The position numbers and the translations under genes are program-made. DNA of 46,433 nt, from contig CAZDXW010000006.1 in NCBI GenBank assembly GCA_964509485.1, forward strand, positions 1 to 46,433, written 5' to 3'. The stretch comes from an uncultured Christensenella sp. Its GTDB lineage: Bacteria; Bacillota; Clostridia; Christensenellales; CAG-138. Each line of letters opens with the position of its first letter. The stretch's first letter is position 1. Shown piece after piece: positions 1-40,946 of the stretch. A model generated the notes under the pieces. The model was not told the DNA's origin, made no database searches, and was given only the letters and a program-made list of their open reading frames with translations.

Positions 1-940
1 GAAACTCGATGCGGTTGATCCGCTCCGGATTATACGCGCGAACCGCGCCGGGCACATCCTTCGGCCCGCCCGCCCAGTTCAAAATCGGCCCGTCGCCGCT
101 CGTAATTGCCATCGGCGTGTTGGAAGGCGTCCCCCATTCCTTGAACAGATATGCGGTGAGCGATCCATCCAGCGGCATACTCGGCATTTTTCCGAGCATG
201 GTTCCGCCAAAGCCGAGCATTCCGCCCATTCCGGTAGGAAGCGACATCTTGTTCAAGGTAGTACCGAGCTTCTTCGATAGGGCGTATACCCGCTCCCGGT
301 CGGCGCACGGCATGGGCTTTGTCCCCGCCAGAACAACGGCCTTTAAGCGTTTGGAACCCATCACGGCTCCAACGCCGCTGCGCGCGGCAATGCGCCCGCC
401 CTCGTTGCAGATGCCGGAAATCAGGGACAGCCGTTCGCCCGCCTCCCCAATCGAAGCGATGCAGGGTTTCTTCTTGCGTCGGGTGTCACGGCAGATGCGT
501 TCCTCGGTTTCGGTCGCGTCCATGCCCCAGTAGTCCGTCGCGTCCCGCAGCTCCGCGCCGCTATTGTCGCACCAGAGGTAAACGGGGTGTTTTGATACGC
601 CGGAGAAAAAGATTCCATCATACCCGCATTGCTTGATGGCGGGCGCGAACACCCCGCCGCAGTTTGCGTCGCCCCATCCGCCGGTCAGCGGGCTTTTGCA
701 GACCACGTTCACCCGGCCTGTAAAGAACGCGCCCGTGCCCGTCAGCGCGCCGGAAACAAACCCGAGAATGTTCTCCGGCCCAAGCGGGTCGGCATCCGCC
801 GGTATGTTCCGGTAGAGATACCACGCGCCCAGCCCCTTGCCGGAGAGAACCGCGTCGTACACCGCCTCCGGAATCTGCTCGGTTCGAATGTCTCCCGTGG
901 ATAGGTCTACCCGCAGAATCTTGCCAAGGCAGCTCTTCAC
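1..940 (-). CDS. Aldehyde:ferredoxin oxidoreductase (AOR family, tungsten/molybdopterin), N-terminal ~313 aa; 3' end lies beyond the window
   Basis: My own translation of the minus strand from GTG at 940-938 gives VKSCLGKILRVDLSTGDIRTEQIPEAVYDAVLSGKGLGAWYLYRNIPADADPLGPENILGFVSGALTGTGAFFTGRVNVVCKSPLTGGWGDANCGG...GYDGIFFSGVSKHPVYLW...DYWGMDATETEE...IGEAGERLSLISGI. This is the typical AOR N-terminal domain pattern and stays open to position 1. An in-frame TAA lies just upstream of the GTG. The GTG overlaps the TGA of the upstream gene (GTGA, 937-940). It is not in the supplied track because it leaves the window. Confidence 0.85.
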   Translation of the reverse strand, partial: MKSCLGKILRVDLSTGDIRTEQIPEAVYDAVLSGKGLGAWYLYRNIPADADPLGPENILGFVSGALTGTGAFFTGRVNVVCKSPLTGGWGDANCGGVFAPAIKQCGYDGIFFSGVSKHPVYLWCDNSGAELRDATDYWGMDATETEERICRDTRRKKKPCIASIGEAGERLSLISGICNEGGRIAARSGVGAVMGSKRLKAVVLAGTKPMPCADRERVYALSKKLGTTLNKMSLPTGMGGMLGFGGTMLGKMPSMPLDGSLTAYLFKEWGTPSNTPMAITSGDGPILNWAGGPKDVPGAVRAYNPERINRIEF

Positions 941-2886
941 TTACATGCATCTCCCGCGTCATATTTGAGTTGTCGCCTGAGCGGCAGCCACCAGATGAAT
1001 CCAAAGAGCAGACAGCCGGTTATCGTCTTCCATCCCGGAACGCCGGTTTCCCGACCGGTTCGTAAGCCAATGAGGAACAGTTCCGCCAGATGCAACAGAA
1101 ATAATCCGATGACCAGCCAATGCCAGCCGGATAGAATCGAGAGCAAAATCGCACCGATCCACAATAGTATTGTAATCGAATATCCCGCAATCTGCCAGCC
1201 CTGCGTTGCTTCACCAAGGCCGGAGTCGCAGGCGGATTTCACAATGTCCCATTGACTCTTGAGCTGCACCGCCTTTTCCTTCGCGGTCATCGGCGGCAGC
1301 GGCCAGCGAATGTAGTCCTTCTGCTCGTCCTCCGGCGTCAAAATCGGCAGCCCGAATACGCGGTCTTCGTGCGTGGTGGGGCAATCCACATATCGCCCCG
1401 CCGCAATGTGCTCCTTTCGAACCAATACGGTTTTAATCATGCCGTGCAGCGTTTGAAGCAGGGCTTTGTTCCGGATACTCATAATCGGCATCGGTACGCC
1501 TGCCGCGCGGCAAACAACGGACATGCACTTTGCCGGGTCGCAGCAGCCGCTTGCGACAAACTGGCACGCGCTTTTTGCCGTCATCGCGCAGTTGCCGAGC
1601 GCCATTTTTCGCATGGGCAGCGCCGCAATGTCGGCAATCGTGTACGGCTTGCCCGTTTTGTCGAACCAGTAGCGTTCCCCCTGAATCAAAACGCCCTCGC
1701 CTTCGATAATGCAGAGCGCAAAATCCTTCCGCGCATTCTTTTTGAAATTATAGTAGTCCAGCCCCGTCTTTGCCGCGGCAAGGCAGCCGCCGGTGCACGC
1801 CTGCTCCAGCGCAAGCGCAATCTCCGGCGTGACCTTGTCTTTGTCCGTCACGACGGGCGCGCCGTTTCGCGTATGCCCGGCCAGCGCCAGCAGGTTTGGA
1901 AACTCGCGCGCGGTCTTCTCGTCCATAAACGAGCTGATCGCCGGGCGAAACTTCGTTACGCTCGCCTCGCCGATGATCTCCACACTTGGATCGCCAAAGC
2001 CTCTTCGCGTCGCTTCAATCATCAGCTTGTTCCGATCCGGATCAAAGCCCATCATGCGGGTGGTGACGCGATCCGCCTCCACGCTGTTGTTGCTGACGAT
2101 GATCTTTCCAACGCGCACCGGGTCGACCGGCGCGGGCGTGTTGCCCTCCCCGCCGATGATGCCGTCGATTACGGTTAAGTCCGGCTTAAACAGATACAAC
2201 AGGTCGGCGAGCTTCTTGTCAATCAGATAGCTGTGGTTGCGCTCCCGCAGAAAATAAGGAATGGTGCCCATTGCGTTCTTAAAGCCGAGCGTCACGCCGG
2301 TGTATAGGTTCGTCTTCATCTTCGGCACGGAGATGTAGAAAGCCTCGTTCCGCACGGCGGCGTCCAGCGTGTCCGGTAAATAGACTTCCTTCATGACCTC
2401 CGCTTTGGGCAGCATGTAGCGCACAACGGGGCGCAGTTCCAGCGCAACCAGCTTTGCGCCGTAGTGCTTTGCAATGCGGTCGTAGCCCGCAACGCGAAAA
2501 CTCACGGGCGTCGGCATGGGTTTGCCGGAGGATTCCGCAATCGTAATATCGTCGGTATAGCGCCGGATATACCGCACCACCGCCTCAAACACACGCGGAT
2601 CGGTCGTTTCCGGATAATCCCGCTCGTCAAATCCGCTGTCGTGATACACCGAAACGAGGTTCGGCTTAATGATCACCGGTCGGTTGTTCTGCAGCAGCTC
2701 GGAAAAGTGAACGGCTTGATCGAGCTTATCCAGCGCACTGTCCACCGCCTGCCGTATGCCGACGACCTCCGGGATTTTATCGTAGGCTTCGGTTCCAAAC
2801 GCCTTTGGCAGCACAACAAAATCGGTTAAATAATCGAGCGGGGCTGCCTGTTCAATGACGACCGTGCTCTTATTCATGTGATTCAT
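937..2886 (-). CDS. DUF362-domain protein with a Cys-rich middle region and a C-terminal multi-helix membrane domain
   Basis: 649-aa ORF. The N-terminal ~300 aa show a DUF362-like pattern (VIIKPNLV..., TDPRVFEAVV, GYDRIAKHYG, KMKTNLYTGVTLGFKNAMG, VIDGIIGGEGNTPAP). Cys-rich stretches follow (CTGGC, GNCAMTAKSACQFVASGCCDPAKCMSVVC). The C-terminus is hydrophobic (ITILLWIGAILLSILSGWHWLVIGLFLLHLAELFLIGL...CLLFGFIWWLPL). ATGA overlap with the upstream gene at 2883-2886. An alternative ATG exists at 2877. Confidence 0.65.
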   Translation of the reverse strand: MNHMNKSTVVIEQAAPLDYLTDFVVLPKAFGTEAYDKIPEVVGIRQAVDSALDKLDQAVHFSELLQNNRPVIIKPNLVSVYHDSGFDERDYPETTDPRVFEAVVRYIRRYTDDITIAESSGKPMPTPVSFRVAGYDRIAKHYGAKLVALELRPVVRYMLPKAEVMKEVYLPDTLDAAVRNEAFYISVPKMKTNLYTGVTLGFKNAMGTIPYFLRERNHSYLIDKKLADLLYLFKPDLTVIDGIIGGEGNTPAPVDPVRVGKIIVSNNSVEADRVTTRMMGFDPDRNKLMIEATRRGFGDPSVEIIGEASVTKFRPAISSFMDEKTAREFPNLLALAGHTRNGAPVVTDKDKVTPEIALALEQACTGGCLAAAKTGLDYYNFKKNARKDFALCIIEGEGVLIQGERYWFDKTGKPYTIADIAALPMRKMALGNCAMTAKSACQFVASGCCDPAKCMSVVCRAAGVPMPIMSIRNKALLQTLHGMIKTVLVRKEHIAAGRYVDCPTTHEDRVFGLPILTPEDEQKDYIRWPLPPMTAKEKAVQLKSQWDIVKSACDSGLGEATQGWQIAGYSITILLWIGAILLSILSGWHWLVIGLFLLHLAELFLIGLRTGRETGVPGWKTITGCLLFGFIWWLPLRRQLKYDAGDACK

Positions 2887-31397: not shown

Positions 31398-32504
31398 ATG
31401 ATGAAAGAATACGGTTGGAAGGAACTTTCGGGGTTGGTCTTTCCCCTCGGCCGCACGTATGTCAGTGAGCAACAGCAGGCGCTGTACTTTAACTGGAGCG
31501 CCAGCGGAATCACCTTTCAGTTTCACGGAACCGAGCTTACCGCGCGGTTCTGCGCGGAGTCTGGCGAAGAGGTCGAAGGCGTTCCTTGGGACGAGACCGC
31601 CCCCCGCCGCAAAACCTGGCCGTGGGTCGCCGTCTACTTGGACGACCAGCCGGAACCCGCGCGCATCTTTGAGGTGTCCGCGCCGGAGCAGGACTGGCTT
31701 TTGTTTCAGAGTGAGCAACCGGAGACGCACCGCATCCGCGTGCTCAAACGCACGGAGAACTACAAAACGTTTCTCGGCCTTCGTTCGCTGGCCGCGGAAG
31801 GCGAAATTCTTCCTCCGGTGCTTTCGCCCCGAAAGCGAATCGAATTCGTCGGGGATTCCATCACCTGCGGCTTCGGCAACGGCAGCAAGGAGCGCGATCG
31901 TGCTTTCTTCTCTGCGGAGGAGGACGGCCCACTCGCCTACGGGCCGCGCGCGGCAGAGCTACTGAACATGGAAGTCAGCTGCGTCTGCATCTCCGGCATC
32001 ACGGCGGTCAAGCACCAGAGCTGGCCGGTCGCGTTTGCCATGGACGAGCTTTACGCCTACACCGACCGTCCGCATCAGGAGAAATCCGGCTCAGGAAACG
32101 ATCTCTCCCGCTGGGATTTCGCCGCAAAGCAAAACGACTATGTCGTGCTCAACCTCGGCACGAACGACGCGTATGCAACGCTCTTTGGCGGGGACGGCGA
32201 GGAGGCCGCGTTCGACCGCGATTACCTCGTTTTTCTTAGGCATGTTCGCGCCTGCAACGGGCCGGACACGCAGATCATCTGCGCGCTTGGCAGCATGAAC
32301 TATTATCTCTGGCATAACATCGTTTGCGCGATGGAAATCTATCGCCAGCAGACCGGAGACGCGAAGATTCACCTCTACCGTTTCCGGCTGATGCACCCCA
32401 TGGACGGATTTGGCGCCGCGGGACACCCTTCCATGGCGACACACGAAAAGATGGCGCAGGAGATTGCGGACGTGATCCGTTCGCTGGAAACGAACGGCAA
32501 ATGA
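31398..32504 (+). CDS. CE2-like SGNH/GDSL acetyl esterase (N-terminal beta-sandwich plus SGNH domain)
   Basis: 368 aa. Block I IEFVGDSITCGFGN, block III VLNLGTNDA, and C-terminal GAAGHPSMATHEKMA (His). The ~140-aa N-terminal module precedes the SGNH domain, as in CE2 enzymes. Confidence 0.75.
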   Translation: MMKEYGWKELSGLVFPLGRTYVSEQQQALYFNWSASGITFQFHGTELTARFCAESGEEVEGVPWDETAPRRKTWPWVAVYLDDQPEPARIFEVSAPEQDWLLFQSEQPETHRIRVLKRTENYKTFLGLRSLAAEGEILPPVLSPRKRIEFVGDSITCGFGNGSKERDRAFFSAEEDGPLAYGPRAAELLNMEVSCVCISGITAVKHQSWPVAFAMDELYAYTDRPHQEKSGSGNDLSRWDFAAKQNDYVVLNLGTNDAYATLFGGDGEEAAFDRDYLVFLRHVRACNGPDTQIICALGSMNYYLWHNIVCAMEIYRQQTGDAKIHLYRFRLMHPMDGFGAAGHPSMATHEKMAQEIADVIRSLETNGK

Positions 32505-33532
32505 TAACGAGCAGTATGCAAAACGGCGTGGTACAGGTTGGCATTCTCGGCTGCGGGCGCATCGCGCGGACGCGGCATATTCCCGAACTCGTGGCGAACC
32601 CAAATGCGCGTCTGGCGGGTTTTTACAACCGCACGCTCGCCGTCGCTGAGGAACTGGCCTCCGGCCTTGGCGGACGGGCATATGCCACGCCCGAAGAGTT
32701 GCTCGCGGACCCGTATCTCGACGCGGTCTGCGTGCTCACGCCGAACAGTTCCCATGCGGAGCTCGCCATCTCCGCGCTCCGCGCGGGAAAGCACGTACTC
32801 TGCGAAAAGCCAATGGCGGTGTCGCCGGAGGAGTGCGAGCGGTTGGCGGAGGCGGAACACGCCTCTACGAATATCCTCATGATCGCGCAGAACCAGCGGT
32901 TCCACGCCGCGCACGTCAAAGCGCAGGAGTTGATCGCGAGCGGCACCATCGGCCGCGTTCTCACCGTCCAGGCCGCTTTTTCGCACGGCGGGCCGTCGAT
33001 GGACGCAAATTCCTGGTTCTTGAGCAAGTCGACCGGACGCCTCGGTGTTTTGGGCGATCTCGGCGTGCACAAAATCGACCTCATTCGGTTTTTAACCGGT
33101 CAGGAGATCGTCGCCATCAGCGCCGTGGTCGATACGCTCGACAAAAAGAGCAAGGACGGCGGACGCATCGAGCTGGACGACAACGCCGCCTGTCTCTTCC
33201 GCCTCAGCGGCGGCGCAATCGGCACCCTGACCGTTTCCTGGACGGCCTATGGCAAGCCGGACGTCTCGACCCGCATTTGCGGAACGCTGGGCACCATCGA
33301 ACTCATGCGAACCTTCGAAGAGCCGCTCGTGCTCTACCGTCCCGGAACCGAGCCGGAGCAGATTTCAGTCGAGTCAATTACCAACAGCGGAGTCGTCGAC
33401 GCGTTCATCGGTGCCATTGTCTCCGGCGCACCGTCCCCCGTCTCCGCTGCCTCCGTTCTACCAAGCATGCGGGCGCTCTTTGCCGCCTACGAGAGCGGGC
33501 GCACCGGCGGAAATATGATCCGACTGGATTAA
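32501..33532 (+). CDS. Gfo/Idh/MocA family NAD(P)-dependent oxidoreductase
   Basis: Start trimmed to ATG 32501 (ATGA overlap with the previous stop). Rossmann motif VGILGCGRIARTRHIPEL and the family signature GKHVLCEKPMA. Confidence 0.85.
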   Translation: MITSSMQNGVVQVGILGCGRIARTRHIPELVANPNARLAGFYNRTLAVAEELASGLGGRAYATPEELLADPYLDAVCVLTPNSSHAELAISALRAGKHVLCEKPMAVSPEECERLAEAEHASTNILMIAQNQRFHAAHVKAQELIASGTIGRVLTVQAAFSHGGPSMDANSWFLSKSTGRLGVLGDLGVHKIDLIRFLTGQEIVAISAVVDTLDKKSKDGGRIELDDNAACLFRLSGGAIGTLTVSWTAYGKPDVSTRICGTLGTIELMRTFEEPLVLYRPGTEPEQISVESITNSGVVDAFIGAIVSGAPSPVSAASVLPSMRALFAAYESGRTGGNMIRLD

Positions 33533-35232: not shown

Positions 35233-36945
35233 TCAGCGGCGCAGCGGCAGGTAAATCAGCGAGCAGGCGCCGCCGTCCTGCGCATTGAAGAACGCAATCT
35301 GAAAGTCTTTTTGATAGATCAGCGACATCCTCCGCTTGAGGTTGCTGATGCCAATGTGATACTGCTCAAACTGCTCGTCCGGCTCCAGCAGCATCTTGAG
35401 CGTTTCGTTGCTGTAACCAACGCCGTTGTCCCTTAGCCGCAGGCGGATGTAGGGTTTGCCGTCCATCTCAATCTGATCGATCTGCACGTTGAACCGCAAG
35501 AACTTCCGGCTGTCCGTGTTGTACTTATAGGAGTTCTCCAGAAAGGTCTGAATCACGAGCGGCGGAACGCGGCAGTCCAGCAGGCTTTGATCCACCTCGA
35601 GGTTGAGTAGCAGCGGGCGCGCGCGATCCATCTGTATAATGCGATAGTAGTCCTGCGCCTCGTCGAGCTCCGACTTGAGCGTAACGAGCAGCAGATTGTC
35701 GTGAAACACGTAGCGCAGATGGTTCGAAAAGGCGAGGATCATGAGCTTCATCTTGTCCATTTCGCCCTTTTCGGACATGTTATACAGGCTCTTGAGGCAA
35801 TTCAAAAAGAAGTGCGACCGGGTCTGCAATTGATAGTATTGCAAAAGCGCGTGTTCAATCTCCTGGGTCTTGCTGGTGTTTTCCTGCACGAGTTGCACCT
35901 TTTGCTCCACGAGCTGATTGAGCGCTTCCCGAATCGTCGCAAACTCCTGCAAATTCTCGTGCTCCTGCGTGAGTATCTCGTTTGAACCTGCGAGGCGCTC
36001 GGAAGCCTGCGTAATCTGATTCAGCGGAAAGATCAGAATCCGATTGATGAACGCGTAGATCACGAGATATAGCGTGCAGATCACCAGAAACGCAATCAGA
36101 AACAGCACGACGGATATGCGCGAGTAGCTCCAGATCCCCTGGGTGGACATGATGCCGCTCAGTCCAATGCCGAACGATGGATAATAGTCGGACTGGATGA
36201 TGTTGCCGACAAAAAAGTATGGAAAACGCGGCGTCTCCGCCGTTTGAATCCGCTCCAGCGTGATTCCCTCGCGCTCCACATAGTCCACGTTGGTCAGCAC
36301 CCGCTCGTTCGAGAAAAACGAGTATTCAATGGAGTCGATTCCCTTCGTGTGGCGGCTGATGAACGCGTTGAGATCGAGAATGGAGCAAACGTACATGTCC
36401 CCCTGCCGGTAGGCGTTCATCAAAAGGACGTACTGATCGGTCGAATACGCGTGCCAGCGCATCAGGCCGCCCTGCGGCTGCTCCAGCCACCATTGTCGAA
36501 TGTCGTTCATGAACTCCATAATCGGGCGGGTCAGCGTTCCGCCGAGGAAATCGGGCCCAAAGCTATAAAAAAACTCGGAGCGGGATTCATTGAACAAAAA
36601 GATTGCACCCGCGGTTGGCACGCGGTTGGAAATGGTCTTTCTCAGGTTGTATTCCGGCAGAATCTTCTCCTTGTCCGAGAGGAGATCCGCCTTGTTGGAA
36701 AGCAGCATAAAATCGGTATCGGTCGAGTACATGTCCTGATTGAACGAAGTCAAATCCTCCAGCACATAGATCAGGTTGTTGGAGTATACGTCCAGCGCGG
36801 CCTGGTTGCTGAAGATGAGCTGCTGTTCGTACATCCAGATGGAATACACGCCATAGGAAACCAGACACAGCAGCGTAATGAGCAGCAGCGTCAGAAAATA
36901 TTGCATCATGCTTTTTTTCGCAGAGCGAACTCGCTTCAAGGGCAT
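35233..36945 (-). CDS. Sensor histidine kinase (YesM-like; membrane/extracytoplasmic sensor, HAMP, His_kinase and HATPase domains)
   Basis: Two TM segments (FLTLLLITLLCLVSYGVY and VVLFLIAFLVICTLYLVIYAF) flank a ~270-aa sensor domain. H-box region LQYYQLQTRSHFFLNCLKSLY. ATPase region LVIQTFLENSYKYN...LRDNGVGY. The start is uncertain (ATG 36945 or 36909; the track gives 37002). Confidence 0.8.
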   Translation of the reverse strand: MPLKRVRSAKKSMMQYFLTLLLITLLCLVSYGVYSIWMYEQQLIFSNQAALDVYSNNLIYVLEDLTSFNQDMYSTDTDFMLLSNKADLLSDKEKILPEYNLRKTISNRVPTAGAIFLFNESRSEFFYSFGPDFLGGTLTRPIMEFMNDIRQWWLEQPQGGLMRWHAYSTDQYVLLMNAYRQGDMYVCSILDLNAFISRHTKGIDSIEYSFFSNERVLTNVDYVEREGITLERIQTAETPRFPYFFVGNIIQSDYYPSFGIGLSGIMSTQGIWSYSRISVVLFLIAFLVICTLYLVIYAFINRILIFPLNQITQASERLAGSNEILTQEHENLQEFATIREALNQLVEQKVQLVQENTSKTQEIEHALLQYYQLQTRSHFFLNCLKSLYNMSEKGEMDKMKLMILAFSNHLRYVFHDNLLLVTLKSELDEAQDYYRIIQMDRARPLLLNLEVDQSLLDCRVPPLVIQTFLENSYKYNTDSRKFLRFNVQIDQIEMDGKPYIRLRLRDNGVGYSNETLKMLLEPDEQFEQYHIGISNLKRRMSLIYQKDFQIAFFNAQDGGACSLIYLPLRR

Positions 36946-37150: not shown

Positions 37151-38299
37151 ATGCCTTTTAATTCAAATGAAGTCTCCATTGCGCGCTGCGAAACCTACGA
37201 TCCCGCGGCGGTCAAAGCCGCGCTGCTGGAAGCGCTCGCGCCCATCCACGGGCTGGACTGGGTGACCCCCGGTATGAAGATTGCCGTCAAGGCAAACCTC
37301 ATGATGCTCAAAAAGCCGGAGAAAGCGGCAACCGTGCATCCGGAAGTGGTCGTTGCGCTCTGCGAACTGTTGATCGAAAAAGGCGCAAGCGTCGTCGTCG
37401 GGGACAGTCCCGGCGGACCGTTCAACTTGGCTTACCTGACGCAAATCTACACGTCCACCGGCATGCGCCGCGTGCTGGACGCGGGCGCGCAGCTCAACGA
37501 GGACTTCTCCACGCGGGACGTCTCCTTTCCCGAGGCGGTTTCGGCAAAGGAGTTTCAAATAACTGACTATTTATTAAAAGCGGATGCAATCATCGACCTC
37601 TGCAAACTCAAAACGCACGGGCTGATGGCATATACCGGCGCCTGCAAAAATCTCTTTGGCGCGATTCCCGGCACGCGAAAGTCCGAGTCGCACTATCGCT
37701 ACAGCACGCATACGTCGTTTGCCAATATGCTCGTGGACGTCTGCGAATACTGCAAGCCGCGCCTGTCGATTGCCGACGCGGTGATGACGATGGAGGGCAA
37801 CGGCCCTTCCGGCGGCACCCCGCGCTATATGGGCGCGATTCTCGCGTCGTACAATCCGCACGCGCTGGACATTGCGGGTGCGCACCTGATGAACCTCGGC
37901 GCTTGCGACGTGCCAACGCTTCAGGCGGCGGTGGAACGCGCTCTTGCGCCAAACGACGTCTCCGGGTTAACCATATTTGGCGATCTGGAATCGTTCGTAA
38001 TTCCCGATTTTCAGCTGACCCCCAAGCACGACGTCCAGTTCTGGGGCTCGAAAGACCCGACGATTTCCAAGATGCTCACAAAGCTGTTTGCCAGCACGCC
38101 AATGGTCGACCGAACGGGCTGCGTCGGCTGCGGAGAGTGCAAGAGCGTTTGCCCCGCAAACGCGATAACGCTTCGCAACCGAATCGCTGAGATTAACCGG
38201 CAAGCCTGCATTCGCTGTTTCTGCTGTCAGGAGTTCTGCCCAAAGGGCGCGATTCGCGTCCATCGCCCGTTCGTCGCACGAATGGTGGACAAACTCTAA
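37151..38299 (+). CDS. DUF362-domain protein with a C-terminal 2x[4Fe-4S] ferredoxin domain
   Basis: Start trimmed to ATG 37151 (GGAG RBS). DUF362 pattern (MKIAVKANLM, TVHPEVVVAL, VVVGDSPGGP, KLKTHGLMAYTGACKNLFG, DAVMTMEGNGPSGG). Two CxxCxxCxxxCP motifs: CVGCGECKSVCP and CIRCFCCQEFCP. Confidence 0.8.
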   Translation: MPFNSNEVSIARCETYDPAAVKAALLEALAPIHGLDWVTPGMKIAVKANLMMLKKPEKAATVHPEVVVALCELLIEKGASVVVGDSPGGPFNLAYLTQIYTSTGMRRVLDAGAQLNEDFSTRDVSFPEAVSAKEFQITDYLLKADAIIDLCKLKTHGLMAYTGACKNLFGAIPGTRKSESHYRYSTHTSFANMLVDVCEYCKPRLSIADAVMTMEGNGPSGGTPRYMGAILASYNPHALDIAGAHLMNLGACDVPTLQAAVERALAPNDVSGLTIFGDLESFVIPDFQLTPKHDVQFWGSKDPTISKMLTKLFASTPMVDRTGCVGCGECKSVCPANAITLRNRIAEINRQACIRCFCCQEFCPKGAIRVHRPFVARMVDKL

Positions 38300-38385: not shown

Positions 38386-39381
38386 ATGCTACTCGGTTTG
38401 GTTCTGATCGACATTCAAAACGACTACTTCGCGGGCGGTCGGCACGCGTTGGTACACCCGAACGAGGCGGCGGCAAACGCGCTTTTGATCCTGTCGGCGT
38501 TTCGCGCCAAGGGCTGGCCGATCTTTCACGTGCAGCACATCAGCACCAAACCCACCGCAACGTTCTTTCTGCCGAATACGCGGGGCGCGGAGTTCTATGC
38601 CGATACCGCGCCGGTCGGCGGCGAACCGGTCATCCTGAAGCACAAGCCAAACAGCTTTCTGGGCACCGATCTGGCGGAGCAGTTGACGAAGGCCGGCGTG
38701 GACGAACTCGTCATCTGCGGCATGATGACGCATATGTGCGTCGATACCACCGTTCGCGCCGCGGCGGATCTTGGCTACCCGGTCACGCTCATCGGGGACG
38801 CCTGCGCAACTAGAAATCTGAGCTGGGCAAACGAAACGGTTCCGGCCTTGCAGGTGCAGCGCGCCTATCTGGCGGCGATCGATGGTTCGTTTGCCAGCGT
38901 CGTTTCGGCGGAAGATTGGCTAAACAAGCTGTCTGGCCAGAGCATCCAGAAAGAAAGCACTGCTTCGCCGAATAAGGCTACGGTGCTCGATTCCGGCCCG
39001 TTCTACCACGGAACTAAGTCGGATTTGCATCCCGGCGATCTCATCGAACCCGGCTTTCGCTCGAACTACAGCGAGCACAAGGCGAATTTCGTCTACCTGA
39101 CCGCGACGCTGGACGCCGCAAAGTGGGGCGCGGAGCTTGCGGCGGGAGACGCGCGCGGGCGCATCTACCTCGTGGAGCCAACCGGCGCGTTTGAGAACGA
39201 TCCCAACCTGACGGATCAGAGATTCCCGGGCAACCCGACGCGCTCCTACCGCACCCGGGAGTCGATTCGCGTGGTCGGCGAGGTGCTCGGCTGGGTCGGG
39301 CACTCGCCCGAAGTGCTGCAAACCATGCGGGATCATCTGGAGCAGTTGAAACAAGCAGGCATCGAAGCCATCAACGATTAA
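38386..39381 (+). CDS. arr: Fusion protein: N-terminal isochorismatase-family cysteine hydrolase (aa ~1-180) plus C-terminal NAD+:rifampin ADP-ribosyltransferase (Arr) domain (aa ~204-331)
   Basis: N-terminal domain: LIDIQNDYF (Asp9), ILKHKPNSF (Lys85), ICGMMTHMCVDTT (Cys118), which is the D-K-C triad pattern of isochorismatase/nicotinamidase-like hydrolases. C-terminal domain matches Arr proteins as I recall them (Arr-ms, Arr-2): GPFYHGTKSDLHPGDL, NFVYLTATLDAAKWGAELAAGDARGRIYLVEPTGAFENDPNLTDQRFPGNPTRSYRTRESIRVVGEV, WVGHSPEVLQTMRDHLEQLKQAGIEAIND. It is a single uninterrupted ORF. The linker KLSGQSIQKESTASPNKATVLDS joins the two domains. Confidence 0.85.
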   Translation: MLLGLVLIDIQNDYFAGGRHALVHPNEAAANALLILSAFRAKGWPIFHVQHISTKPTATFFLPNTRGAEFYADTAPVGGEPVILKHKPNSFLGTDLAEQLTKAGVDELVICGMMTHMCVDTTVRAAADLGYPVTLIGDACATRNLSWANETVPALQVQRAYLAAIDGSFASVVSAEDWLNKLSGQSIQKESTASPNKATVLDSGPFYHGTKSDLHPGDLIEPGFRSNYSEHKANFVYLTATLDAAKWGAELAAGDARGRIYLVEPTGAFENDPNLTDQRFPGNPTRSYRTRESIRVVGEVLGWVGHSPEVLQTMRDHLEQLKQAGIEAIND

Positions 39382-39415: not shown

Positions 39416-40429
39416 ATGAACTCTACCGAAGTACTGCAAACCGAACGTCTCTTCCTTCGCCTCCTCACGCTATCGGATGCGGACGCGTTCTTTCGCTACC
39501 GCTCGCTGCCGGAGGTCTGCCGGTTTCAATCGTTTCAACCAAAGACGCATTCCGAAATCGAGGCGTTTCTTCGCGAAAACGAGAGTGTGCCGCCGAATAC
39601 CCCCAGTACCTGGCGTCAACTCGCGATATGCCTGCGCGACGGCACGCTGATTGGCGACGTCGGCCTGCATACGCTCGACGAGTGGCAGCTGGAACTTGGC
39701 TATACCCTCGCGCCGGAGCATCAGGGCAAGGGCTACGCAACGGAGGCGGTCGCCGCCGTGCTGCGGCAGGCGTTTGCCGTTTGGAACAAGCATCGGGTCA
39801 CCGCGTCCGTCGATCCGGACAACCATGCGTCCATCCGGCTGCTGGAGCGGCTCGGCTTTCGGTTGGAAGCGCATTTTCGCAAGAGCTATCGCATGAACGA
39901 AGATTGGGTCGACGATTGCGTCTACGCCATGCTCCGCGAGGACTGGGTGGGGTTGGATCATCCGCGCGTGGAAATTGCGGAAGCAACCAAGCATCTGGAT
40001 GACGTTCGGGCGCTCTTTTCGGAATACGCCGCTTCGCTTGAAATCGACCTGTCCTACCAGAATTTCTCCAAGGAACTCTCCGGCCTGCCCGGCAAGTATG
40101 CCCCGCCGGACGGAAGGCTCTTTGTCGCGTTTGTCGGCGGTCAAAGCGCCGGATGCATCGCCCTGCGCCGGTTCGACGAGACCCGCGCGGAGATGAAGCG
40201 ACTCTACGTCCGCCCCGCGTTTCGCGGGTACCATCTCGGTCGGCTGCTCGCCGAGCGCGCCATCGCCGCGGCACGGGACGTCGGCTACACAGCCGTTCTG
40301 CTCGACACGCTTAGCACAATGAACACCGCAAAGCAGCTCTATCGCGAACTCGGCTTTGTCGAAATCGAGCCGTACTACGACAGCCCCATTCACGGAACGA
40401 CGTTTTTACAGCTCTCGCTGCATTGCTAG
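39416..40429 (+). CDS. Tandem GNAT N-acetyltransferase (RimJ/RimL-like module plus a second GNAT module)
   Basis: 337 aa. Module 1 (aa ~10-175): LRLLTLSDADAFF...GYTLAPEHQGKGYATEAV...VDPDNHASIRLLERLGFRLE. Module 2 (aa ~185-337): LFVAFVGGQSAGCIALRR...MKRLYVRPAFRGYHLGRLLAERAIAAARDVGYTAVLLDT...AKQLYRELGFVEI. Each has its own acetyl-CoA (R/Q-x-x-G-x-G/A-like) region. Confidence 0.8.
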   Translation: MNSTEVLQTERLFLRLLTLSDADAFFRYRSLPEVCRFQSFQPKTHSEIEAFLRENESVPPNTPSTWRQLAICLRDGTLIGDVGLHTLDEWQLELGYTLAPEHQGKGYATEAVAAVLRQAFAVWNKHRVTASVDPDNHASIRLLERLGFRLEAHFRKSYRMNEDWVDDCVYAMLREDWVGLDHPRVEIAEATKHLDDVRALFSEYAASLEIDLSYQNFSKELSGLPGKYAPPDGRLFVAFVGGQSAGCIALRRFDETRAEMKRLYVRPAFRGYHLGRLLAERAIAAARDVGYTAVLLDTLSTMNTAKQLYRELGFVEIEPYYDSPIHGTTFLQLSLHC

Positions 40430-40459: not shown

Positions 40460-40810
40460 ATGGGAACCATCGCCTATAACCCCGACATCAAAACGGTGCT
40501 CGACTCGTTTCTCCTCGCGAGCGAACTCGTCACCCCCGGCAAGATGTTTGGTTTCCCCGCGTACTACGTCGGAAAAAAGCTCTTCGCCTGCGTATATGAA
40601 AACGGCGTGGGCATCAAGGTTTCGGCAGAAACGGCATCGCAGCTGCTCGGCAGGGAAGGCATTTCCCCGTTTGTGCCGATGGGAAGACGTCAGATGAAGG
40701 AATGGATCTACCTGACGCATCCGTCCCCGGAAGCGTTTCTGGAGGATCGGGCTTTGCTGGAGTCTTCCGCCGAATACGTCGCCTCGCTGCAGGGAGCTAG
40801 TGCGGAGTAA
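40460..40810 (+). CDS. TfoX_N-like small protein
   Basis: 116 aa, RBS AAAGGAG. GKMFGFPAYYVGKKLFACVYENGVGIKV resembles the TfoX N-terminal domain pattern (MFG..aY..gk.Fa). Weak, memory-based call. Confidence 0.45.
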   Translation: MGTIAYNPDIKTVLDSFLLASELVTPGKMFGFPAYYVGKKLFACVYENGVGIKVSAETASQLLGREGISPFVPMGRRQMKEWIYLTHPSPEAFLEDRALLESSAEYVASLQGASAE

Positions 40811-40913
40811 GCAAGCTTGATCGCATAGGCAATTGCATAATTGCAAATCACGATGCACAGGCCGCCGAAGAAATCCTGCGGCGTTACCCACCGAAATAAC
40901 AAGTTTGATCCCC

Positions 40914-40946
40914 CGCCTTGCGACGAGTGCTTCGCAGGGCTTTTTT
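40914..40946 (+). terminator. Rho-independent terminator
   Basis: 9-bp stem gccttgcga (40914-40922) / tcgcagggc (40932-40940) including one G-U pair, a 9-nt loop, then TTTTTT (40941-40946). Confidence 0.7.

What the first reader, a model, noticed from the sequence alone, without database searches (positions are those of the whole stretch)
38386..39381. Single-ORF fusion of an isochorismatase/nicotinamidase-like cysteine hydrolase to a rifampin ADP-ribosyltransferase (Arr)
Seen in the sequence: one uninterrupted 331-aa ORF. Residues ~204-331 match Arr proteins almost block for block (GPFYHGT..., YLTATLDAAKWGAELA, GRIYLVEPTGAFENDPNLTDQRFPGNPTRSYRTRE, GHSPEVL...LEQLKQAGIEAIND). Residues 1-180 carry the isochorismatase-family catalytic triad pattern (Asp9, Lys85, Cys118 in CGMMTHMCVDTT).

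Established knowledge: Arr enzymes as I know them are small stand-alone proteins of about 140-150 aa. They use NAD+ and release nicotinamide. Nicotinamidase (PncA) belongs to the isochorismatase family.

Inference (Rosetta-stone logic): the fused hydrolase could remove nicotinamide produced by the Arr domain. That would relieve product inhibition and feed NAD salvage. Alternatively it could act on the ADP-ribosylated product or on another substrate, giving a two-step modification enzyme. Either would be a new architecture for this resistance family. The Arr domain might also target something other than rifamycins.
Basis: partly seen in the sequence, partly recalled or inferred. Interest (0 to 1): 0.8.

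Follow-up and report, generated by a model that had tools for sequence, protein, structure and literature searches.

The report
Hydrolase–Arr fusion from a lost stop codon
A real but rare gene fusion joins a cysteine hydrolase of unknown substrate to a rifamycin-inactivating enzyme (Arr); it arose when the stop codon between two touching, in-frame genes mutated, and nothing found here shows that the two halves work together.

Summary
Window 38386-39381 (+) is one uninterrupted 331-aa ORF. Residues 1-184 are an isochorismatase-like cysteine hydrolase and residues 204-331 are a full Arr domain. Both have intact catalytic residues and both are under purifying selection.

The fusion is not an artefact. 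The same architecture occurs in 7 protein clusters (71-94% identity) from many independent assemblies.

Its origin is simple. Sister genomes with the same gene order carry a 184-aa hydrolase gene whose TAA stop directly abuts the ATG of a 146-aa arr, in the same frame and without indels. In the window that TAA is CAG, so 184 + 1 + 146 = 331. Fused forms never group together in bootstrap trees, so the state changed at least twice. Other relatives keep the hydrolase in the same cluster with no arr at all.

Outside this lineage the pairing is absent: 0 of 80 genomic hydrolase homologues have arr nearby, and 1 of 79 other Arr loci has a hydrolase nearby.

The hydrolase is not a nicotinamidase by signature. 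It scores far below the PncA model cutoff, and two of the three core PncA metal ligands are replaced by Ile and Phe.

The fusion is new as an architecture, but the proposed nicotinamide-removal coupling is unsupported. Most likely it is two independent enzymes on a flexible tether.

The parts
38386..39381 (+). Fused ORF, 331 aa plus stop: isochorismatase-like cysteine hydrolase, linker, Arr
   Evidence: fused homologues P0001-P0006; 12 sequence variants in independent assemblies
38386..38937 (+). N-terminal domain, residues 1-184: isochorismatase-like cysteine hydrolase with triad D9 (38410-38412), K85 (38638-38640), C118 (38737-38739). It corresponds to the whole 184-aa stand-alone gene of sister genomes.
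   Evidence: Pfam PF00857. Best solved structure is 3LQY, which has no defined function (PMC5353710). Triad is invariant. dN/dS 0.18-0.39.
38938..38940 (+). Codon 185, CAG (Gln): the exact position of the TAA stop codon in split relatives. This is the fusion point.
   Evidence: Gap-free DNA alignment with L005, L006 and L008. Codon listing: TAA ATG in split forms, CAG AGC in the window and L001, CGA TTG in L004. P0004 keeps Gln-Met.
38941..38994 (+). Linker, residues 186-203. It derives from the N-terminal tail of the former stand-alone Arr, diverges fast and is predicted disordered.
   Evidence: dN of 0.6-1.0 between lineages; AlphaFold pLDDT below 50 over residues 185-212
38995..39378 (+). 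Arr domain, residues 204-331: NAD+-rifamycin ADP-ribosyltransferase with H208 (39007-39009), SNY 226-228, Y237 (39094-39096) and D272 (39199-39201)
   Evidence: NF033144 199.5 bits against cutoff 130; 2HW2 Arr-ms E 5.8e-48; residues invariant in clade; dN/dS 0.07-0.20
37151..38299 (+). Upstream syntenic gene: DUF362 plus 4Fe-4S ferredoxin domain protein. It is 382 aa in homologues; the mechanical ORF list starts it earlier, at 36878.
39416..40429 (+). Downstream syntenic gene, 35 nt after the fusion: double GNAT acetyltransferase (337 aa)
   Evidence: In L001 and L175 it is further fused to an AAA_18 kinase-like domain, giving 520 aa.
40460..40810 (+). TfoX_N/YjbR-like small protein (116 aa), the last gene before a terminator-like hairpin at 40915-40940

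Best explanation
The ORF is a chimeric gene made by loss of a stop codon.

In the ancestor, an arr gene was acquired as a separate ORF, like essentially all other arr genes. It lay immediately downstream of a resident isochorismatase-like cysteine hydrolase gene, in a cluster of small modifying and detoxifying enzymes: DUF362-ferredoxin, GNAT-GNAT, AAA_18, DJ-1, HD, PhnB-like, flavodoxin-like reductase and PLP decarboxylase. The hydrolase stop TAA directly abutted the arr ATG, in the same frame.

A single T-to-C change (TAA to CAA, later CAG or CGA) joined the two genes into one 331-aa protein. The old N-terminal tail of Arr became a flexible linker of about 20 residues. This change, or its reversal, happened at least twice in the lineage.

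The product most likely carries two independent activities. The C-terminal domain ADP-ribosylates rifamycins from NAD+, as a canonical Arr does. The N-terminal domain hydrolyses an unidentified amide, lactam or ester through its Asp-Lys-Cys triad. It has no PncA-type metal site, so nicotinamide is not its likely substrate. The fusion gives co-expression at most, in the way fused bifunctional resistance enzymes do. It does not indicate substrate channelling.

Shown here: the anatomy, the origin of the junction, the state changes, the purifying selection, the lack of co-occurrence elsewhere and the failure of the nicotinamidase signature. Inferred: the enzymatic activities, their independence, and the direction of change (split form ancestral).
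For: Domains and catalytic residues.

Junction: split relatives L005-L009 and L090 have a 184-aa hydrolase, TAA, then the ATG of a 146-aa Arr with no spacer, and identical synteny. The gap-free in-frame alignment puts that TAA at codon 185. Gln occupies position 185 in 5 fused forms and Arg (CGA) in one. P0004 still has Gln-Met.

State changes: fused forms are monophyletic in 0% (N-domain) and 1% (Arr domain) of 500 bootstraps. The window group clusters with split L005/P0009 at 97%.

Single acquisition of arr: the clade's Arr domains are monophyletic, with 75% support.

Independence of the hydrolase: the same cluster lacks arr around P0011 and P0017. None of 80 GTDB loci with 47-60% identical hydrolases has arr within about 6 kb. 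Of the 79 nearest Arr loci other than the fusion L095, only L102 has such a hydrolase. A published survey found no universal arr gene context (PMC8492726).

Selection: omega is 0.18-0.39 for the N-domain and 0.07-0.20 for Arr, and the linker is unconstrained.

Fusion-prone locus: GNAT-GNAT-AAA_18 is a triple fusion in L001 and L175, and AAA_18 is deleted in the window.

Arr fuses with many unrelated partners elsewhere.

Not PncA.
Against: The zero-spacer TAA-ATG arrangement and the repeated fusions persist over about 30% protein divergence. That is also what a real functional partnership would produce.

One unrelated contig (L102) again has this hydrolase subfamily within 1.3 kb of arr.

No biochemical data exist for this hydrolase subfamily. 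Its closest structure, 3LQY, has no assigned function, so a substrate linked to the Arr reaction cannot be excluded.

H48 and H51 are conserved and align with two PncA metal ligands, so a variant metal site is not excluded.

The AlphaFold model was too poor in the Arr half (mean pLDDT 64) to test whether the domains pack together.

The direction of change (fusion versus fission) is inferred, not proven.
Confidence: 0.7

Rival explanations
1. The hydrolase domain acts on a product or substrate of the Arr reaction. It might deamidate the released nicotinamide, relieving product inhibition and feeding NAD salvage. Or it might hydrolyse an amide or ester of the (ADP-ribosyl-)rifamycin. Either way the protein would be a two-step inactivation enzyme.
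For: The fusion is real and both domains are catalytically intact and under purifying selection. Tight TAA-ATG juxtaposition or fusion is kept across the clade. Nicotinamidases belong to the same superfamily (established knowledge), and hhalign gives 98.5% probability against PncA. L102 shows a second case of proximity.
Against: The N-domain scores 47 bits against the nicotinamidase equivalog cutoff of 174, and only over residues 94-149. PncA metal ligands D49 and H71 are replaced by Ile46 and Phe60. The closest relatives are hydrolases of unknown function or lactam hydrolases, not PncA (PMC5353710). The hydrolase persists in the same cluster without arr. There is no co-occurrence elsewhere. 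Fused and split states interchange freely. Arr is fused to at least seven unrelated partners elsewhere, which argues for opportunistic fusion.
Confidence: 0.12
2. The fusion is adaptive as a bifunctional resistance or detoxification protein. Both halves would inactivate different xenobiotics, for example a lactam- or amide-containing antibiotic and rifamycins. Fusion would be selected for stoichiometric co-expression, as in AAC(6')-APH(2'').
For: The locus is an array of small modifying enzymes: GNATs, AAA_18, DJ-1, glyoxalase/PhnB-like proteins and reductases. Isochorismatase-like hydrolases can inactivate antibiotics: SttH opens the streptothricin lactam (PMC11702664), and MhIHL is a gamma-lactamase (PMC5353710; 5HA8 matched at E 6.8e-12). 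The neighbouring genes also fuse (GNAT-GNAT-AAA_18).
Against: No substrate is known for this hydrolase subfamily. It is widespread in bacteria and archaea as a chromosomal 'cysteine hydrolase family protein', which looks more like a housekeeping function. The changes between fused and split states suggest the fusion itself has little selective value.
Confidence: 0.15
3. The single ORF is an assembly or sequencing artefact, and the organism really has two genes.
For: Close relatives do have two genes that differ at one codon.
Against: Twelve distinct fused sequences in the same 90% cluster come from NCBI, ENA, JGI and Logan assemblies, one of them on 21 contigs. Fused forms diverge to 71% identity, with CAG, CAA-type or CGA codons at position 185 and loss of the ATG.
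Confidence: 0.01

Closest known systems
Arr-ms / Arr-2 rifampin ADP-ribosyltransferases (PDB 2HW2, 9IAF, 9IBA; NCBIfam NF033144)
   Same: Residues 204-331 align end to end with Arr-ms (E 5.8e-48). They carry H19/Y49/D84 equivalents and the HGT, SN[Y/F] and DPN[V/L] motifs, and score above the equivalog cutoff.
   Different: This Arr is the C-terminal domain of a 331-aa protein rather than a stand-alone protein of about 143 aa. Its former N-terminal tail now serves as a linker. Activity on rifamycins has not been tested.
Split gene pair in sister genomes (P0008 or P0007 hydrolase plus a 146-aa Arr; loci L005-L009, L090)
   Same: Same synteny, same reading frame and same total length. The hydrolase is 84-85% identical and the Arr 83-88% identical.
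   Different: The split forms have TAA ATG where the window has CAG AGC, so they make two polypeptides and probably use translational coupling.
Oleispira antarctica isochorismatase-like hydrolase OLEAN_C07660 (PDB 3LQY) and related hydrolases 4H17 and 8CIB
   Same: These are the best solved-structure matches to the N-domain (E 1.8e-43 for 3LQY). They have the same length of about 180 aa and the same D-K-C triad.
   Different: They are stand-alone proteins. 3LQY has no defined function (PMC5353710), so it gives no information on substrate.
Nicotinamidase/pyrazinamidase PncA (PDB 3PL1, 1ILW/1IM5)
   Same: Same superfamily fold and the same aligned Asp-Lys-Cys triad.
   Different: Only 26-28% identity. 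The equivalog score is far below its cutoff. Metal ligands D49 and H71 are replaced by Ile and Phe.
Fused bifunctional antibiotic-modifying enzymes such as AAC(6')-Ie-APH(2'')-Ia (comparison from general knowledge)
   Same: Two complete catalytic domains from different enzyme families sit on one polypeptide, joined by fusion of adjacent genes.
   Different: In the known cases both halves act on one antibiotic class. Here the hydrolase substrate is unknown and no resistance phenotype has been shown.
Other multi-domain Arr proteins found here: tandem Arr-Arr (about 240 aa), SRPBCC/AHSA1-Arr, SDR-Arr, Zn-ADH-Arr, GNAT-Arr, MobA-like NTP-transferase-Arr, Imm5-like-Arr
   Same: A complete Arr domain sits at the C-terminus behind an unrelated N-terminal domain.
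   Different: The partner domain differs in each. None has an isochorismatase-like partner. None has been characterised as far as the searched literature shows.

Membership tests
Arr, NAD(+)-rifampin ADP-ribosyltransferase (NF033144 / PF12120) | Score above the curated family cutoff over the full domain | tested here: met
   NF033144 scores 199.5 bits against cutoff 130, residues 204-331 on model positions 3-131 of 131. PF12120 scores 155 bits against cutoff 25.
Arr, NAD(+)-rifampin ADP-ribosyltransferase (NF033144 / PF12120) | H-Y-D catalytic and NAD-binding residues (H19, Y49, D84 of Arr-ms) and the HGT, SN[Y/F] and DPN[V/L] motifs | tested here: met
   H208, Y237, D272, S226-N227-Y228 and D272-P-N-L are present and invariant in 9 clade sequences. 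Motif definitions come from PMC6092378.
Arr, NAD(+)-rifampin ADP-ribosyltransferase (NF033144 / PF12120) | ADP-ribosylation of rifamycin O23 and a rifampicin resistance phenotype | not testable with these tools
   Needs an enzyme assay and MIC measurement.
Isochorismatase-like (cysteine) hydrolase superfamily, PF00857 | Pfam score above the gathering threshold | tested here: met
   133 bits against cutoff 27, residues 5-147
Isochorismatase-like (cysteine) hydrolase superfamily, PF00857 | Asp-Lys-Cys catalytic triad | tested here: met
   D9, K85 and C118 are invariant in 20 family members and align with PncA D8, K96 and C138.
Nicotinamidase/pyrazinamidase PncA | Score above the curated equivalog cutoff (NF008623 / PRK11609) | tested here: not met
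   47.3 bits against cutoff 174, and only residues 94-149 align. PncA structures rank far below 3LQY: 1ILW at E 6.5e-8 against 1.8e-43.
Nicotinamidase/pyrazinamidase PncA | Metal site that binds the pyridine nitrogen: Asp-His-His core, with D49, H51 and H71 (plus H57) in M. tuberculosis PncA. Residue roles are from established literature, recalled from memory. | tested here: not met
   In the hhalign of the family profile against Mtb PncA, D49 aligns with I46, H71 with F60, H51 with H48 and H57 with H51. The PncA query sequence was verified as identical to 3PL1.
Nicotinamidase/pyrazinamidase PncA | Nicotinamide deamidase activity | not testable with these tools
   Needs an enzyme assay.
Rosetta-stone functionally linked pair (fusion reflecting a conserved partnership) | The two families co-occur as neighbours or fusions in several unrelated lineages | tested here: not met
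   None of 80 GTDB hydrolase loci has arr within about 6 kb. One of 79 other metagenomic Arr loci has a hydrolase. There is no fusion in 72,556 plasmids. There is no other such fusion among the top 150 of 1.84 billion representatives.
Rosetta-stone functionally linked pair (fusion reflecting a conserved partnership) | Each partner depends on the other (gained and lost together) | tested here: not met
   The hydrolase is kept in the same syntenic cluster without arr around P0011 and P0017 (L091, L092).

The most novel reading that the evidence does not exclude
The tight coupling (a zero-spacer TAA-ATG or outright fusion, kept over about 30% sequence divergence) reflects a real two-step chemistry. 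A metal-independent isochorismatase-like cysteine hydrolase would process a product or substrate of the Arr reaction: nicotinamide, or an amide or ester on the ansamycin or its ADP-ribosyl adduct. That would define a new bifunctional rifamycin-inactivating enzyme and give this large orphan 'cysteine hydrolase family protein' subfamily its first function.
Probability: 0.1. Interest if true: 0.65.

Novelty: new variant of a known kind. Interest (0 to 1): 0.3.

Why it matters
As it stands, this is a clean natural example of how a bifunctional-looking resistance gene can arise from one nucleotide change between abutting in-frame genes, and revert. It is a caution against reading function into a fusion that is confined to one lineage.

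It also shows that Arr domains occur in more multi-domain contexts than the literature describes. That matters for resistome annotation, because length or coverage filters tuned to proteins of about 145 aa may miss or mislabel these forms.

If the two halves did cooperate, the protein would be a new two-step rifamycin-inactivating enzyme. It would also provide a first functional handle on a widespread orphan hydrolase subfamily.

Tried and rejected
- GTDB genome scan with the full protein. The host genome was not recovered, so the taxon remains unknown. It is probably an uncultured Bacillota, judged only from the YesM/YesN-type two-component genes, the carbohydrate-esterase and ABC-transporter content and the best hydrolase hits.
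- tblastn matches in L012, L021 and L026 seemed to extend into the Arr region. They turned out to be stand-alone hydrolases followed by other genes.
- Plasmid hit H45 (91% query coverage) is a spurious HSP running past a 212-aa isochorismatase gene.
- The exact-sequence look-up of the window protein found no record. A cluster member, P0135, gave GCA_036804025.1 instead.
- AlphaFold2 with a 16-sequence alignment modelled the hydrolase domain acceptably, but the Arr half was poor (mean pLDDT 64, pTM 0.58). Interdomain geometry could not be assessed.
- A deeper alignment that included tandem-Arr proteins forced their first repeat onto the hydrolase columns, so no second prediction was run.
- Rfam found no riboswitch or other RNA in the window.
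- The promoter and terminator scan found nothing above chance near the gene.
- GNAT-Arr fusion P0148 rests on a single 1-kb contig at 0.85x coverage, so it is treated as weak evidence.
- Literature searches for an isochorismatase or nicotinamidase link to Arr found nothing relevant.
Full report
**1. Observation**

Window 38386-39381 (+) is a single 331-aa ORF with no internal stop. Pfam places an Isochorismatase domain (PF00857) at residues 5-147 (E 1.6e-38). It places an Arr-ms domain (PF12120) at residues 206-303 (E 5.3e-46). NCBI's equivalog model for NAD(+)-rifampin ADP-ribosyltransferase (NF033144) matches residues 204-331 end to end, at 199.5 bits against a cutoff of 130.

They are invariant in the family. 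The Arr half is about 58% identical to Arr-ms (PDB 2HW2, E 5.8e-48). It keeps H208, Y237 and D272, which correspond to H19, Y49 and D84. It also keeps the HGT, SNY and DPNL motifs that PMC6092378 describes as required for NAD+ binding and catalysis.

**2. Not an artefact, but rare**

A search of 5.8 billion proteins found the two-domain architecture in only six other 90%-identity clusters (P0001-P0006, 71-94% identity). All are from metagenomes or MAGs. The window's own cluster holds 12 distinct 331-aa variants from NCBI, ENA, JGI and Logan assemblies, one of them on 21 contigs. One lies in MAG assembly GCA_036804025.1.

An exhaustive HMMER scan of 1.84 billion cluster representatives showed no other isochorismatase-Arr fusion among its best 150 hits. 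A tblastn search of 72,556 plasmids found none either. No paper in the searchable library mentions the combination.

**3. How the fusion arose**

Close relatives of the hydrolase half (P0007 and P0008, 84-85% identical) are 184-aa stand-alone proteins. On their contigs (L005-L009, L090) the stop codon is followed with no spacer by the ATG of a 146-aa arr gene. The gene order around them is the same as in the window:
- histidine kinase and AraC-type response regulator, transcribed divergently;
- DUF362-ferredoxin, hydrolase, arr, GNAT-GNAT, TfoX_N-like, AAA_18;
- DJ-1, HD, PhnB-like, flavodoxin-like reductase, ferredoxin, PLP decarboxylase.

The split and fused loci align without any gap and in the same frame: 184 + 1 + 146 = 331 codons. 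At codon 185 the split forms read TAA ATG, the window and L001 read CAG AGC, and L004 reads CGA TTG. Five fused proteins have Gln at position 185, and P0004 still has Gln-Met. The join is therefore a TAA-to-CAA-type substitution that lets translation run from the hydrolase into arr. The former N-terminal tail of Arr serves as the linker.

**4. Evolutionary behaviour**

All Arr domains of the fused and split loci form one clade (75% bootstrap). This suggests arr was acquired once next to the hydrolase.

The fused forms are never monophyletic: 0% of 500 bootstraps for the N-domain and 1% for the Arr domain. The window group clusters with the split forms L005/P0009 at 97%. The fused or split state therefore changed at least twice.

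Two further relatives, P0011 (74% identical) and P0017 (73%), sit in the same gene cluster with no arr at all.

Both domains are under purifying selection. Omega is 0.18-0.39 for the hydrolase and 0.07-0.20 for Arr. The linker (residues 181-203) evolves almost freely, with dN of 0.6-1.0.

The locus is generally fusion-prone. The next gene is GNAT-GNAT (337 aa) in the window but a GNAT-GNAT-AAA_18 triple fusion (520 aa) in L001 and L175. The window keeps only the last 14 codons of AAA_18.

**5. Is there a conserved partnership?**

No.
- Eighty GTDB genome loci encode 47-60% identical stand-alone hydrolases, in Bacillota, Bacteroidota, Deltaproteobacteria, Methanosarcina and others. None has an Arr domain within about 6 kb.
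- Of the 80 nearest Arr loci in JGI metagenomes, one (L095) is the same fusion. One (L102) has a 47%-identical hydrolase separated from arr by a GFO/IDH/MocA gene. The other 78 have no isochorismatase-family ORF, and 58 of the 80 loci have at least 600 nt of upstream sequence.
- A published survey of arr in 198,082 genomes likewise found no universal gene context (PMC8492726).

Arr is also not strictly a stand-alone protein. Tandem Arr-Arr proteins of about 240 aa are abundant, for example in cyanobacteria. Single examples or small groups are fused to SRPBCC/AHSA1, SDR, Zn-ADH, GNAT, MobA-like NTP-transferase and Imm5-like domains. Such varied partners fit opportunistic fusion with whichever gene lies upstream.

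**6. Is the N-domain a nicotinamidase?**

The evidence says no.
- Its best solved relative is 3LQY from Oleispira antarctica (E 1.8e-43), which has no defined function (PMC5353710). PncA structures rank far lower (1ILW, E 6.5e-8).
- The nicotinamidase equivalog PRK11609 scores 47 bits against a cutoff of 174 and aligns only residues 94-149.
- A profile alignment of the subfamily against M. tuberculosis PncA (query sequence verified against 3PL1) aligns the Asp-Lys-Cys triad. It places Ile46 opposite metal ligand D49 and Phe60 opposite H71. Only H51 and H57 have His counterparts, H48 and H51. The roles of the PncA ligands are recalled from the literature.

The metal site that holds the pyridine ring of nicotinamide is therefore not conserved. 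Characterised members nearer to this subfamily hydrolyse lactams. MhIHL is a gamma-lactamase (PDB 5HA8, matched at E 6.8e-12; PMC5353710). SttH, another isochorismatase-like hydrolase, opens the streptothricin lactam (PMC11702664). These are leads only. Similarity to SttH could not be tested.

**7. Structure**

AlphaFold2 with the available shallow alignment gave a reasonable hydrolase domain, a disordered linker (pLDDT below 50 over residues 185-212) and a poorly modelled Arr half (mean pLDDT 64, pTM 0.58). It neither supports nor excludes interdomain packing.

**8. Verdict**

The fusion is real, lineage-specific and undescribed, so it is a new architectural variant of Arr. Its origin is a one-nucleotide loss of a stop codon between two abutting in-frame genes. 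The state has changed back and forth. The hydrolase lives on without arr in sister genomes. The two families are not associated elsewhere. The hydrolase lacks the nicotinamidase signature.

The best-supported reading (confidence about 0.7) is two independent enzymes on one flexible polypeptide: a canonical Arr and an orphan cysteine hydrolase. Functional coupling remains possible (about 0.1) and is cheaply testable by the assays listed. Interest is modest at 0.3.

Noticed in passing
Proteins P0012-P0120 (e.g. P0013 from Leptolyngbya sp. NIES-2104, P0028, P0034, P0060, P0087); not in the window: Most of the best Arr-domain matches are proteins of about 240 aa made of a truncated N-terminal Arr repeat followed by a full Arr domain. 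NCBI annotates them simply as NAD(+)-rifampin ADP-ribosyltransferase. In some, such as P0013, the first repeat has lost the catalytic Asp (EAAPE instead of EDDPN), which suggests a pseudo-enzyme half. The searched Arr papers do not mention this.
   Followed up: partly
P0150, P0161, P0167, P0183, P0214, P0181, P0148; L100:11-1051, L135:2355-3866, L148:371-1714: Complete Arr domains are fused C-terminally to unrelated domains: SRPBCC/AHSA1, short-chain dehydrogenase (seen at least 3 times), Zn-alcohol dehydrogenase, Imm5-like, alpha/beta-hydrolase fragment, GNAT and MobA-like NTP-transferase. Several partners belong to classes that bind or modify small molecules.
   Followed up: partly
window 39416-40429 and 40858-40899; L001:2926-4488; L175:11033-12595; L005:5945-7866: The gene after the fusion is also fluid. 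It is GNAT-GNAT (337 aa), TfoX_N-like and AAA_18 as three genes in L005. It is a single GNAT-GNAT-AAA_18 protein of 520 aa, without TfoX_N, in L001 and L175. In the window AAA_18 is deleted except for its last 14 codons (100% identical remnant).
   Followed up: partly
L102:1322-3680: An unrelated, lower-GC metagenomic contig carries a hydrolase of the same subfamily (47% identical), then a GFO/IDH/MocA oxidoreductase, then a stand-alone arr. This is the only other hydrolase-arr proximity found. A GFO/IDH/MocA gene also lies about 5 kb upstream in the window (32324-33532).
   Followed up: no
L104:3969-5408; P0148 (L094:34-918): The nearest Arr relatives outside the clade sit next to, or are fused with, a GNAT that is 58-59% identical to one half of the window's GNAT-GNAT neighbour. 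This hints that arr and this GNAT type travel together. The P0148 fusion rests on one 1-kb contig at 0.85x coverage.
   Followed up: no
window 937-2886 (-) and 37151-38299 (+): The window encodes two DUF362-domain proteins, one of 649 aa and one of 382 aa with a 4Fe-4S ferredoxin tail. The second always directly precedes the hydrolase gene in every related locus, whether or not arr is present.
   Followed up: no
window 38527-38538 (residues H48-V49-Q50-H51): An H-V-[QR]-H motif is invariant or nearly invariant across this hydrolase subfamily. It aligns with two of the four metal ligands of M. tuberculosis PncA, while the other two positions are hydrophobic. Its role is unknown: possibly a variant metal site or substrate binding.
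   Followed up: no
window 1-36000: The rest of the window is dominated by carbohydrate-active and transport genes. These include SASA and CE2/GDSL esterases, alpha/beta hydrolases, an SBP_bac_1+DUF3502 lipoprotein with two ABC permeases, an MFS transporter, a beta-lactamase-fold protein and a YesM/YesN-type two-component pair. There are no tRNA genes and no Rfam hits. This fits an uncultured polysaccharide-degrading Bacillota-like genome of about 58% GC, but the taxon was not established.
   Followed up: partly
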